This document shows positions 46,801-49,800 of a stretch of 64,000 bases of DNA, in pieces. The DNA lies in assembly GCF_056712565.1 (NCBI RefSeq), contig NZ_CM160072.1; one strand, 5' to 3'. Made by a program: the position numbers. Every line of letters begins with the position of its first letter. Position 1 is the stretch's first letter.

Positions 46801-49800
46801 CATAATGACTTTCATGTACATTGCTTTATGTACACACCCATATTCGATATTCAGGTATTCGCAATGCCAAAACTCACAGATATGCAGATCCGCGCATGGA
46901 TAAAGGCGGGAGACAGATTTGATGGCAAGGCAGACGGCAACGGCCTTTATATTTGCTACCCCAAAAACTACACAGTCCCGTTCTGGCGATTCCGATATAA
47001 GCTCGCAGGAAAACAGCGGGCTATGGTTATCGGCTCTTACTCCGAACTGTCACTATCAAAAGCCAGAGAAATAGCAAAAGAGCTGTCAGCCAGAGTTGCT
47101 CTTGGCTATGACGTAGCAGCAGAAAAACAGGAACGAAAAGCTGAAGCACTGGCAAAAATGGAGGCTGAGAAAAACGCCATGCGCGTTTCAGATCTGGCCG
47201 CCGAATACTTCGAGCGACAGATACTTCCGAGATGGAAACATCCCGATATCCTTCGCCGGAGAATTGATAAGGATATTAACCCCTGCATTGGGCATATGAA
47301 GGTAGAGGACGTTAAGCCACGCCACATTGACGACATGTTGAAAGGTATCGTTGACCGAGGAGCACCAACGATAGCAACAGATGTATTACGCTGGACACGC
47401 CGTATCTTTGACTATGGGATAAAACGCCACGCTCTGGAGATAAACCCTTGTTCAGCGTTTGAAGTATCTGATGCTGGTGGTAAAGAGGTTTCCCGCGACC
47501 GTTGGCTAACTCGCGATGAGCTTATCAGGCTATTCGAGGCTATGCGCACCGCAAAAGGATTCAGCCGCCAGAACGAACTGACATTTAAGCTATTGCTGGC
47601 ACTATGCGTTCGTAAGATGGAGTTATGCGCCGCACGATGGGAAGAGTTTGATTTAGATGGTGCGGTATGGCATTTGCCGGAAGAACGCAGCAAAAACGGA
47701 GACCCTATTGATATACCTCTACCTTCTCCTGCCGTTGAATGGTTGAGAGAGCTACACACCTTTTCATGTAATAGCGCATGGGTGCTTCCAGCCAGGAAGA
47801 TGCAAAACAGAATGATCCCACATATTCAGGAAAGCACTTTACCCGTAGCACTGGCTAAGGTTCGCGCCGAAATGCCGGATGTGCCTAATTTCACGATTCA
47901 CGACTTCCGGCGTACCGCACGTACTCATTTAGCAGCATTGGGTGTTGATCCTGTCGTAGCGGAACGATGCCTCAATCATCGCATTAAGGGTGTGGAGGGG
48001 ATTTATAACCGCCATCAGTATTTTGATGAGCGTAAAGCTGCGCTGGCACAGTGGGCTGATCTGCTGGTGGCACTGGAAAGCGGGAAAGACTACAACGTAA
48101 CGCCATTCGATAAAGCCCGGAGGCAAATGTGAACAACATCTTGAGAAAATCGCCAATCGAACGGCTTTGTTCATCTGTATCGATTACCCCTCATGAAATG
48201 GCTGTGGCCTTGGCTGGCCTAAACCCATCTATGCGCATTAGCGATGTGCCTGAGGAAAATTTCGAATATGTCGATTTTGTCAGAACTCATCTTGCCAGAG
48301 CTATCAAGGTGTACAGAGGTGAAAAAACTAGTAAAGACGAGCCTTGCCATGCCCTTGATATTTTCTTAGCTTCTTACCCATTTATTGACACAAATACACC
48401 AGAAATAATTGTTCAGAAAATATCAGAAGCGATTGATGATTTGCGTGGCACCAAGGGCTGGGAAGAAAAAGCCCGAAACCTTGGAGGACTCCAGTTAGTA
48501 AACTACATCAAAGAAACCAACCGCAGCGGACGTGGGCAGCATAGAAAGCAGGATGAGGAAAACGGGACAATGAAAATGATGGGGTTGATAGTACATCTGC
48601 TGATAAAAAAATCAGGCTCATCTTCCTACATCCAAAATGGGAAACCTAATCGCACAGCTATATACCGTGACATAGAAACCTTAATCAAGGATGAAGGGAT
48701 ATCCCATAAAGGAATAGCAAAAGCCACATTCCTAGAAAAAATCTCACGGGCTTTATTAGCTGTCCACGATCTCGACTAATCACTTTTCACGCCCCTCCAA
48801 AGCAATGGCGGGGCATTACCTGTTTACCCATCTCCACCAGCATAGATAATTCTATGCCTAGCCATTGCTATATCTGTTCGGCTTAGTTCATCTGTAATCA
48901 CCCCATCTCTAAAAGATACGCCAGCTATCATTAGCCATTTTAAGCCATCATGAGCCATTATAAACCGACTCAACCAATTGAATAATAAAAGATAAAAGGA
49001 AATGTAAAAACATGATGAATGACGATGAAAGATATAACTCTTTGATAAAACAATGATTTTTTAAACTGGTAACTAATTGAAAATAAAGAAAATAATTATC
49101 CCACCTGCATTTGCAATCTTTCAGTGGATCGGTATTTTTTCAATAGATTTATAATTTCTTTCAATAGATTCTAGTCTTAATAGAAATACTGTATGGGCAA
49201 CCACTAAACTTTAAGTAACTTCATGAGCTATCAGAGAGGTTACTAGAGATATGACAGCACACAAGCCAGCATCATCAGCTATCCCAACAACTGGATACAT
49301 CCGTCGCTTTCGCATGCCGGAATTGCTAGGTGTTTCACTGCCTACTATTGATAGATGGGTTAAAAATGGCACTCTTCCACGCCCAGTGAAGCTAACAGAT
49401 AACGTGACTGCGTTTGATGCGGTGGAAATTAATAACTGGCTGGCAGAACGCCGAAACACATCAGCCTGATTAAATGACTACGGGGGATGACGTTCAACCC
49501 CACCAGCAAACAAAAGTAACTTAATTTAATAGCAGGTGTTTTTATGAAACTGCGAAAAACGCCCGTACAGGGGCAGGGCTTCGTTCGGCCTGAAACCAGC
49601 ATGAGCGATATTCTGGTTCGCCACAAAGCGGAGTCGCGCATTGATTCCCGCTTATTTGCTGAGCGTATTGGCATAAAGCACAAAAACCTTTATTCGCTCA
49701 TTCAGAAGCACAAAACCGGATTGCGTGAACTGGGCATCCTTCCGTTTCAAACGGAGCGATTAAAAACCCGTCAAAACGGGGAGCGTGAACATAAGTTTGC

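What the first reader, a model, noticed from the sequence alone, without database searches (positions are those of the whole stretch)
48780..49250. AT-rich non-coding spacer with TTCAATAGATT direct repeats upstream of alpA
About 470 bp without a convincing ORF, strongly AT-rich, containing TTCAATAGATT at 49139-49149 and 49160-49170 (21 bp apart), 80-110 bp upstream of alpA. It may hold the alpA promoter and regulator sites, or a small RNA.
Basis: seen in the sequence. Interest (0 to 1): 0.3.

Follow-up and report, generated by a model that had tools for sequence, protein, structure and literature searches.

The report
Operator array controlling a satellite's alpA switch
The repeat is real: it is half of a conserved set of four protein-binding sites at the promoter of alpA, the master switch of a phage satellite in E. 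coli, and the sites travel with an uncharacterised neighbouring gene that may be the regulator not yet identified for such satellites.

Summary
An exact 12-mer repeat this close occurs in 5 of 2000 shuffles.

The window is an E. coli phage satellite (PICI-like) at yicC: int, orf216, spacer, alpA, Bro-type genes, primase.

The two copies are O2 and O3 of four direct repeats (consensus TTTCAATRGAT). Spacing of 19/21/16 bp is the same in the three loci measured. O4 overlaps a weak -35 (TAGAAA, 49181-86). A -10 (TAAACT, 49205-10; TAnnnT in every relative) follows. A 5'-UTR hairpin (49215-43) then buries the alpA ribosome-binding site and shows compensatory changes.

The array occurs in all 13 distinct satellites carrying an orf216 homologue (28-100% identity). 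It is absent from four yicC satellites with another gene in that slot, although their AlpA is up to 96% and Int 92-95% identical to those of array-bearing elements.

I infer that orf216 (phrog_30524; no known fold) binds the array and gates PalpA, probably as a repressor. This is unproven.

Every spacer also has a 10-bp-period repeat array whose unit sequence differs; its role is unexplained. No small RNA or small ORF is supported.

The parts
48129..48779 (+). orf216, a 216-aa orphan protein (phrog_30524). Its start overlaps the int stop by 4 bp, so it is probably co-transcribed and translationally coupled with int. It is the candidate trans-acting partner of the operator array.
   Evidence: ORF and overlap. 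Family. It always sits between int and alpA and is always followed by a long spacer carrying the array.
48791..48814 (+). GC-rich hairpin just after the orf216 stop (GCCCC..GGGGC). It looks like a terminator but has no U-run. It may partly insulate alpA from int-orf216 read-through.
   Evidence: A comparable hairpin is present in 6 of 11 relatives (win, L007, L008, L012, L018, L020); only L020 has a canonical U-run.
48923..48972 (.). 10-bp-period tandem array with unit AGCCATYWTR, 4-5 copies. The architecture is conserved in every orf216 spacer but the unit sequence differs. Function is unexplained.
   Evidence: TRF. Lag-10 autocorrelation beats all 300 shuffles in 10 of 11 spacers. Alignment. 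Units in relatives.
48975..49110 (.). AT-rich core (GC 20-27%) with A-tracts at about 10-bp phasing. It is probably intrinsically bent DNA and a plausible H-NS target. Its sequence is poorly conserved.
49117..49129 (+). O1, the first direct repeat (TCTTTCAGTGGAT).
49136..49149 (+). O2 (TTTTTCAATAGATT).
49157..49170 (+). O3 (TCTTTCAATAGATT).
49174..49186 (+). O4, a degenerate fourth copy (CTTAATAGAAATA). Its 3' half T[AG]GAA doubles as the -35 hexamer (TAGAAA, 49181-49186).
   Evidence: Alignments and upstream sequences. The O3-O4 offset of 16 bp, counted by me from the sequences, is the same in the window, L019, L020 and L021.
49205..49210 (+). Predicted -10 hexamer TAAACT, 18 bp after the -35. 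The inferred transcription start is about 49216-49218.
   Evidence: All 11 relatives keep T-A-n-n-n-T at this position (TAAACT, TAGGAT, TACACT, TAGAAT, TATCAT, TAACTT, TATTCT, TAATCT). The pair scores 8 of 12, below the 9-of-12 threshold of the generic scan. No TSS data exist.
49215..49243 (+). 5'-UTR hairpin GUAACUUC-loop(CAUGAGCUAUCAGA)-GAGGUUAC. Its 3' arm contains the Shine-Dalgarno sequence (GAGAGG, 49234-49239). It would lower AlpA translation.
   Evidence: Minimum free energy -14.6 kcal/mol, z -4.3, and it is present in the centroid structure. Compensatory pairs: CGUAAC/GUUACG, AGUAAC/GUUACU (window), CAUAAC/GCUAUG (L018), CCUAAC/GUUAGG (L020); G-U wobbles in L005 and L006. It also occurs in L003-L006, so it tracks the alpA type, not orf216.
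49251..49469 (+). alpA, 72 aa, Phage_AlpA/HTH_17. In Gram-negative PICIs this is the master activator.
   Evidence: Pfam 26.4 bits against a cut-off of 21. Role from PMC6092414 and PMC11773190.

Best explanation
The spacer is the control region of alpA, the master switch of a PICI-like phage satellite integrated at yicC.

The functional part is the last ~135 bp. Four co-oriented sites (O1-O4, consensus TTTCAATRGAT) are spaced 19, 21 and 16 bp apart. The last site overlaps a weak -35. A -10 (TAAACT) follows, then a transcript whose 5' end folds into a hairpin that hides the ribosome-binding site.

I propose that the sites are operators for the protein encoded immediately upstream, orf216, which is made together with integrase. 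In my favoured version orf216 holds PalpA shut by occupying O1-O4, with O4 blocking the -35. A helper-phage product then inactivates it, and AlpA's known positive autoregulation locks the switch on. The hairpin dampens translation from leaky or read-through transcripts.

What is shown: the sites, their spacing and their strict co-occurrence with orf216; the conserved -10; and compensatory changes in the hairpin.

What is inferred: that orf216 binds the sites, the sign of regulation, the transcription start, and the helper input.

My probabilities are as follows:
- The region is the PalpA control region with protein-binding operators: about 0.85.
- orf216 is the binder: about 0.6.
- orf216 is a repressor rather than a helper-dependent activator: about 0.55, given that it binds.
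For: 1. Phylogenetic footprint. Spacers of relatives are 386-592 bp and barely alignable apart from the 10-bp array and a short central block in the closest relatives. The last ~135 bp nevertheless keeps the four sites and the TAnnnT -10. Spacing of 19/21/16 bp matches in the window, L020 (47% orf216 identity) and L021 (28%, a capsid-forming PICI), and is 21/20/16 in L019 (36%).

2. Linkage. The array is present in all 13 distinct loci that carry an orf216 homologue. Eleven came from genomes and assemblies; two more from IMG/VR (L037, L060) were inspected directly. It is absent from all 4 yicC satellites with a different slot gene (L003-L006).

3. The array does not track AlpA. L003 AlpA is 96% identical to L007 AlpA, and L004 is 96% identical to L008, yet only L007 and L008 have the array. 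L012 AlpA is 56-59% identical and L021 AlpA is essentially unrelated (16 of 58 aligned residues identical), yet both have it.

4. The array does not track Int. The window's Int is 92-95% identical to those of L003-L006, but only 65% to L010 and 30% to L021, which do carry the array.

5. The array does not track the primase. The window and L002 share a >=99% identical spacer but have different primases and different ori iterons.

6. The motif is unique to this spot in the 64-kb window.

7. The orf216 start overlaps the int stop by 4 bp in the window and 7 relatives (L021 by 1 bp; L020 has a 9-bp gap), implying constitutive co-expression.

8. Literature. PalpA is the helper-inducible, AlpA-autoactivated switch of Gram-negative PICIs, and whether these elements have a global repressor was described as unclear (PMC6092414; PMC11773190).

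9. Hairpin stability and compensatory changes.
Against: There is no direct evidence that orf216 binds DNA.
- It has no Pfam, NCBIfam or PADLOC hit.
- Its C-terminal fragments give only sub-threshold HTH hits at E 0.02-0.04.

Linkage within one mobile cassette can arise from co-inheritance alone, so the binder could be a helper-phage or host protein.

Direct repeats upstream of and replacing a -35 are the classic layout of activator-dependent promoters such as PhoB and OmpR (from my own knowledge). The sign of regulation is therefore open.

The promoter assignment rests on conservation only; the generic scan did not call it. All relatives come from a small family of 31 clusters at 50% identity, so the number of independent lineages is modest.
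Confidence: 0.6

Rival explanations
1. The repeats are binding sites for a helper-phage-encoded activator. They would be the sensor through which the helper switches alpA on. orf216 would be merely a co-inherited passenger, for example an interference or accessory gene.
For: Helper phages induce alpA transcription through an unidentified factor (PMC6092414; PMC11773190). Direct repeats upstream of and overlapping a weak -35 fit an activator layout. orf216 has no recognisable DNA-binding fold.
Against: The motif stays nearly constant across satellites from E. coli, Salmonella, Buttiauxella and Klebsiella, with very different Int, AlpA, primase and packaging modules. These elements presumably have different helpers. 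The only partner that is always present is orf216. No phage record shares the spacer. The IMG/VR phage family carrying a similar motif pair is an unrelated GC-rich group with a different context.
Confidence: 0.15
2. The repeats are nucleation sites for a host nucleoid protein (H-NS, or IHF/Fis) within a curved, AT-rich silencer that keeps horizontally acquired alpA quiet.
For: GC is 20-32% with A-tracts at 10-bp phasing just upstream. TCAATAGATT matches 8 of 10 positions of the H-NS high-affinity motif TCGATAAATT; this comparison is from my own recollection of Lang et al. 2007 and was not run as a tool test.
Against: The best-conserved positions include G residues (..T[AG]GA..; GGA in the distant relatives), which H-NS sites avoid. 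Strict co-orientation and matching spacing point to a sequence-specific protein. Sister satellites in the same host and at the same locus do without the sites.
Confidence: 0.12
3. The repeats are AlpA's own sites for positive autoregulation.
For: AlpA activates its own promoter in EcCICFT073 and EcCIMP1. Xis/AlpA-type proteins often bind tandem direct repeats (from my own knowledge).
Against: AlpA proteins 96% identical to those of array-bearing elements sit behind promoters with no trace of the motif (L003, L004). Divergent or unrelated AlpA types (L012, L021) sit behind intact arrays. The characterised EcCIMP1 PalpA region lacks the motif.
Confidence: 0.08
4. The spacer encodes a small RNA or a small protein, or is the decayed remnant of a longer slot gene.
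For: In sister elements the distance from int to alpA (~1.1 kb) is filled by 293-318-aa genes. The + strand folds slightly better than shuffles, z -2.1.
Against: tblastn of the sister slot proteins against the spacer finds nothing. Six-frame comparison among spacers gives only multi-frame, both-strand hits over the operator block, which indicates DNA-level conservation. Rfam finds nothing real. The - strand fold has z +0.3. The long spacer is retained down to 28% orf216 identity, which is not expected of decaying DNA.
Confidence: 0.04

Closest known systems
PalpA control regions of Gram-negative PICIs (EcCICFT073, Fillol-Salom 2018, PMC6092414; EcCIMP1, PMC11773190)
   Same: Same position: upstream of alpA in the int-alpA integration zone of a unidirectional satellite with Bro-type genes, a P4-type primase and PerC. 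Probably the same role, as the helper-inducible, AlpA-autoactivated master promoter. The EcCIMP1 reporter fragment (-449 to +50) is about the size of this spacer.
   Different: There is no sequence or motif similarity to the EcCIMP1 int-alpA gap. No operator array or upstream regulator gene has been described for those elements. Here the array is part of a swappable cassette with orf216.
SaPI Stl master repressor and its operators (Gram-positive PICIs)
   Same: The proposed logic is the same. An island-encoded, constitutively made DNA-binding protein keeps the excision and replication switch off until a helper protein inactivates it. The protein is variable and lies next to int.
   Different: orf216 is co-oriented with its target and coupled to int, whereas stl is divergent. 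It has no homology to Stl and no recognisable HTH. Its target is an activator gene (alpA). Repressor function is untested.
Tandem direct-repeat activator sites (OmpR F1-F3 at ompF; PhoB pho boxes replacing the -35)
   Same: Co-oriented repeats at about 20-bp (two-turn) spacing cover roughly -100 to -35, and the promoter-proximal site substitutes for a poor -35.
   Different: The motif is different, no response-regulator gene is nearby, and the resemblance is recalled from my own knowledge rather than tested. If this analogy holds, orf216 (or another binder) would be an activator, not a repressor.
Satellite P4 regulatory and replication elements (Vis at PLE/PLL; ori and crr type I iterons TGTTCACC)
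   Same: AlpA is a Vis homologue and the primase is P4-alpha-like. In the capsid-forming PICI L021, TGTTCACC-type repeats lie after the primase and similar TGTTCATC decamers lie in the int-alpA spacer 4.4 kb away, reminiscent of P4 ori and crr.
   Different: In the window and in L002 the spacer array (AGCCAT..) does not resemble the iterons next to the primase (TGCGGGTTA; TGAACCAAC). It also stays identical while the primase changes. The gene order differs from P4.

Membership tests
Gram-negative PICI PalpA control region | Lies directly upstream of an AlpA-family gene, downstream of int, in a satellite with primase and Bro-type genes and no phage structural or lysis genes nearby | tested here: met
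   Pfam Phage_AlpA at 26.4 bits, above the cut-off of 21. Annotated neighbourhood: int, alpA, Rha, AntA/B, Bro-N, Icd-like, DUF927 primase, SSB, PerC. A 12,152-bp circular form also exists.
Gram-negative PICI PalpA control region | Transcription is induced by a helper phage and boosted by AlpA | not testable with these tools
   Needs reporter assays. Known only for EcCICFT073 and EcCIMP1.
Gram-negative PICI PalpA control region | Sequence or motif similarity to a characterised PalpA | tested here: not met
   The EcCIMP1 int-alpA gap (L142) has no TTTCAATRGAT sites and a different 5' UTR.
Sigma-70 promoter | -35 and -10 hexamers with 16-18 bp spacing, conserved among relatives | tested here: inconclusive
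   TAGAAA-N18-TAAACT scores 8 of 12, below the 9-of-12 threshold of the scan. However, TAnnnT and T[AG]GAA are kept at fixed positions in all 11 relatives. The perfect TATAAT at 49150 is not conserved. No TSS data exist.
Repressor-operator pair of the SaPI Stl type | The adjacent gene encodes a sequence-specific DNA-binding protein | tested here: inconclusive
   No family hits. The AlphaFold model (pLDDT 90) has no significant PDB neighbour. Only sub-threshold HTH hits appear in the C-terminal third. Genetic linkage is strict: 13 of 13 against 0 of 4.
Repressor-operator pair of the SaPI Stl type | Divergent arrangement of the repressor gene and the repressed operon | tested here: not met
   orf216 is co-oriented with alpA and overlaps int by 4 bp.
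Cis-regulatory RNA: Shine-Dalgarno-sequestering 5'-UTR hairpin | A stable stem that includes the Shine-Dalgarno sequence, maintained by compensatory substitutions | tested here: met
   Minimum free energy -14.6 kcal/mol, z -4.3. There are at least 3 distinct double changes plus G-U wobbles across 12 loci. Whether the 5' arm is inside the transcript depends on the untested transcription start.
Known RNA families (Rfam 15) | Covariance-model match at or near the gathering score | tested here: not met
   The only hit is a CRISPR-DR10 match at 21 bits against a gathering score of 39, E 0.5.
P4-type replication iterons (ori/crr), for the 10-bp array at 48923-48972 | The repeat unit matches the iterons next to the element's own primase and changes when the primase changes | tested here: not met
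   The window ori repeats are TGCGGGTTA and those of L002 are TGAACCAAC, yet the two share an identical spacer array. Only L021 shows a resemblance.
H-NS high-affinity nucleation site | Match to TCGATAAATT within AT-rich curved DNA, with H-NS occupancy | not tested
   The 8-of-10 match is from my own recollection. The conserved G residues argue against it. ChIP would be needed.

The most novel reading that the evidence does not exclude
The slot between int and alpA of enterobacterial satellites holds interchangeable 'gatekeeper' cassettes. Each cassette would carry an orphan regulator plus its own version of the alpA promoter. orf216 with O1-O4 would be the first recognisable pair. These would be the helper-sensing master regulators of Gram-negative PICIs, functional analogues of SaPI Stl built on a new fold. 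The variable 10-bp arrays would act as a second, fast-evolving specificity element.
Probability: 0.3. Interest if true: 0.7.

Novelty: new variant of a known kind. Interest (0 to 1): 0.5.

Why it matters
Gram-negative PICIs and related satellites are common in E. coli, Salmonella and Klebsiella, and they move virulence and anti-phage genes. Their life cycle hinges on switching alpA on. Since 2018 it has been unclear what keeps alpA off and how the helper phage is sensed, because no repressor equivalent to SaPI Stl has been found.

This locus offers a concrete, testable candidate: a conserved four-site operator array at PalpA that is inherited only together with one uncharacterised protein family. 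If that protein is the gatekeeper, it would explain induction specificity. It would also explain why the int-alpA slot is a swap hotspot. In addition, it would provide a handle for engineering satellites as delivery vehicles.

If it is not, the region is still a cleanly dissected promoter, operator and 5'-UTR structure for a master regulator.

Tried and rejected
- **Decayed gene.** I tested whether the spacer is the remnant of the 293-318-aa slot genes seen in sister satellites. tblastn was negative.
- **Small ORF.** Six-frame comparison among spacers gave only multi-frame hits over the operator block. The 14-codon ORF at 49013 is not conserved.
- **Small RNA.** Rfam and folding gave no support.
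- **TATAAT at 49150-49155 as the -10.** It is absent from every relative.
- **AlpA as the binder.** Rejected by the AlpA identity matrix against presence of the array.
- **Int arm-type sites.** Rejected: Int is 92-95% identical in array-less elements, and the sites lie about 2 kb from att.
- **10-bp array as Rep iterons.** Rejected for the window and L002. A hint remains in L021.
- **The repeat TCAxxAGCTATC (49221 and 49272).** The copy inside alpA varies at synonymous positions in relatives, so it reflects coding only.
- **IMG/VR motif scan.** It returned at least 120 contigs but is dominated by one unrelated GC-rich phage family, so the count is not a measure of enrichment.
- **Sequence searches with the spacer.** There was no match in phages, and the only plasmid match is the circular satellite itself.
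Full report
**What the window is.** The finding lies in an integrative element inserted next to yicC in E. 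coli. The same sequence in strain ExPEC XM is annotated in this order: tyrosine integrase, hypothetical protein (here 'orf216', window 48129-48779), unannotated gap, AlpA-type HTH regulator (49251-49469), Rha, AntA/AntB and Bro-N proteins, an Icd-like protein, DUF4222, a DUF927 (P4-alpha-like) primase, SSB, ProQ/FinO and PerC. This is the integration, Bro, replication and late layout described for Gram-negative phage-inducible chromosomal islands (PMC10111431). A 12,152-bp circular record from another strain carries the same int-orf216-spacer-alpA module joined to different downstream genes. It looks like an excised satellite.

**Checking the observation.** TTCAATAGATT is at 49139-49149 and 49160-49170, as stated. 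The exact repeat is 12 bp long. An exact repeat of that length within 40 bp arose in 5 of 2000 dinucleotide-preserving shuffles. The gap is 471 bp with no annotated or conserved ORF. It is AT-rich mainly from about 48950 onwards, at 20-32% GC; the first third is 41-48% GC. The repeat finder adds a third copy at 49117-49129. Tandem Repeats Finder reports a separate 10-bp-period array at 48923-48963.

**Conservation within E. coli.** The spacer is at least 99% identical in about 110 of 5426 complete E. coli genomes, which is too little variation for footprinting. It is absent from phage records.

**Sister satellites without orf216.** Searching with alpA alone found satellites at the same yicC site whose AlpA is 70-89% identical to the window's. 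In these (L003-L006) the gene between int and alpA is a different orphan of 293-318 aa. The slot proteins differ from each other (only partial similarity between some pairs) and none resembles orf216. The gap to alpA is only about 100 bp, and there is no TTTCAATRGAT motif.

**Relatives with orf216.** I retrieved orf216 homologues at 28-89% identity together with their contigs. Every one sits between an integrase and an alpA-type gene. Every one is followed by a long gap of 386-592 bp.

**The footprint.** These gaps are largely unalignable except for the last ~135 bp.
- That stretch holds three clear direct repeats and a fourth degenerate one (consensus TTTCAATRGAT).
- Spacing is 19, 21 and 16 bp in the window, L020 and L021, and 21, 20 and 16 bp in L019. 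L019, L020 and L021 are the most distant relatives; L021 is the capsid-forming PICI deposited as 'phage vB_KppS-Ant'.
- The 3' half of the fourth site, T[AG]GAA, lies 17-18 bp upstream of a hexamer that always reads TAnnnT (TAAACT in the window, 49205-49210). I read these as a weak -35 and a -10.
- The perfect TATAAT at 49150 is not conserved and is therefore not the promoter.
- A weight matrix built from the sites finds only this cluster in the 64-kb window.

**What the array is linked to.**
- It does not follow AlpA. L003 and L007 AlpA are 96% identical, as are L004 and L008, yet only L007 and L008 have the array. L012 (56-59% identical) and L021 (essentially unrelated AlpA) have it.
- It does not follow Int. 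The window's Int is 92-95% identical to those of the array-less L003-L006, but 65% and 30% identical to those of the array-bearing L010 and L021.
- It does not follow the primase. The window and L002 share the spacer but have different primases and ori repeats.
- It follows orf216: 13 of 13 distinct loci with a homologue have it, against 0 of 4 without.

The unit of inheritance is therefore a cassette made of orf216, the spacer and the alpA promoter. The cassette is bounded upstream by the int stop, which the orf216 start overlaps by 4 bp in most loci. Downstream, it ends at about the -10.

**The 5' UTR.** Downstream of the -10, all elements with this AlpA type, including L003-L006, share a hairpin: GUAAC(UUC), a loop containing CAGCUAUCA, and (GGA)GUUAC. 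Its 3' arm includes the Shine-Dalgarno sequence.
- In the window it has a minimum free energy of -14.6 kcal/mol with z -4.3, and it survives in the centroid structure of the whole spacer.
- The arms show compensatory changes: CGUAAC/GUUACG; AGUAAC/GUUACU in the window; CAUAAC/GCUAUG in L018; CCUAAC/GUUAGG in L020. G-U wobbles occur in L005 and L006.
- This favours an RNA structure that limits AlpA translation, although a DNA palindrome cannot be formally excluded.
- A TAnnnT hexamer sits 5-9 nt before the 5' arm in most cassettes where I could place one. The hairpin is therefore predicted to sit at the very 5' end of the mRNA. This is my inference; no transcription-start data exist.

**Other features of the spacer.**
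- A GC-rich hairpin follows the orf216 stop (48791-48814). Comparable hairpins occur in 6 of 11 relatives, but only L020 has a U-run.
- Every spacer has a stretch of 10-bp-period repeats: lag-10 self-match beats all 300 shuffles in 10 of 11.
- The unit sequence of those repeats differs between relatives: AGCCATYWTR in the window, CTGTACTGWW in L020, CCACCTGGAG in L019. L021 has CATTCAACAG, CACGTAACGR and TGTTCATCAN.
- These repeats do not match the presumed ori repeats next to the primase in the window or in L002. In L021 they resemble the TGTTCACC repeats after its primase. I could not assign a function.
- The AT-rich middle has phased A-tracts and little sequence conservation.

**What orf216 is.** It belongs to a small family: 31 clusters at 50% identity, equal to phrog_30524 of unknown function.
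- It has no Pfam, NCBIfam, PADLOC or PDB sequence match.
- The most conserved segments are a basic motif, SGRGxHRKxDE, and a C-terminal KGxxKSTFYxK. C-terminal fragments give only sub-threshold HTH hits.
- DNA binding by orf216 is therefore an inference from linkage, not a demonstrated property.

**Mechanism.** Published work shows that alpA is the master activator of Gram-negative PICIs. Its promoter is induced by the helper phage through an unknown factor, and AlpA boosts its own expression. Whether these elements have a global repressor was reported as unclear (PMC6092414; PMC11773190).

I propose the following sequence.
1. orf216, made together with Int, occupies O1-O4.
2. It gates PalpA, most simply by blocking the -35.
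3. A helper product releases it, and AlpA autoactivation then commits the element.

The co-oriented repeats replacing a poor -35 equally fit an activator layout, so the sign of regulation is uncertain.

**Rivals, with my probabilities.**
- A helper-encoded activator binds the sites (0.15).
- Host nucleoid proteins bind them (0.12).
- AlpA itself binds them (0.08).
- The spacer encodes a small RNA, a small ORF or a pseudogene remnant (0.04).

The experimentally studied EcCIMP1 PalpA region has no such repeats, so this is a distinct variant of the known kind.

**Verdict.** The new element is the strict coupling of a four-site array to an orphan protein in a swappable int-alpA cassette. That coupling gives a directly testable candidate for the unidentified regulator of Gram-negative satellites.

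Noticed in passing
[not shown]
   Followed up: partly
window 55260-55387: Just downstream of the DUF927 primase there are TGCGGGTTA x2, followed by inverted 21-mers containing TAACCCGCA x2.6. This is likely the satellite's replication origin. L002 has different repeats (TGAACCAAC) after its primase and again about 2 kb away at 8530-8556.
   Followed up: partly
L021 (LR881103.1) 7130-7330 and 11721-11813: 'Escherichia phage vB_KppS-Ant' is a capsid-forming PICI. Its int-alpA spacer has about 17 decamer repeats, including TGTTCATCAN x6. TGTTCACCAC x2, which resembles the P4 type I iteron, lies after the primase 4.4 kb away. The pair resembles P4 ori and crr.
   Followed up: partly
L003-L006, between int and alpA (e.g. 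L003 1975-2913): The int-alpA slot at yicC holds four different orphan proteins of 293-318 aa. They differ from each other (only partial similarity between some pairs), and each has its own short alpA upstream region. The slot behaves as a cassette-exchange hotspot. L003, L005 and L006 share an N-terminal segment that looks HTH-like.
   Followed up: partly
L041 1895-2549 and about 100 other IMG/VR loci (L022-L141): A family of GC-rich phage contigs of about 40-45 kb carries TTTCAATGGA repeats at 20-bp spacing. They lie immediately upstream of a divergent 200-aa gene with an HTH-like N-terminus that may be a small terminase. The context is unrelated to the satellites; it may be a packaging or regulatory site.
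   Followed up: partly
window ~52355-52558 (Icd-like gene) and 44000-54000: An Icd-like gene and a YlcI/YnfO gene lie in the Bro zone, where P1/P4-type immunity RNAs (C4/CI) are expected. Rfam gave no C4 hit in this range.
   Followed up: no
window ~57470-64000: Three large co-oriented ORFs lie at the end of the satellite. They are annotated 'bacteriophage protein' (843 aa), hypothetical (686 aa) and hypothetical (>746 aa), and run off the window. They may be a cargo or defence module.
   Followed up: no
window 49013-49057: A 14-codon ORF (MMNDDERYNSLIKQ) with an upstream AAGGAA lies in the AT-rich core. The nucleotide block GATGAAAGAT is semi-conserved in close relatives, but the reading frame is not.
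   Followed up: yes
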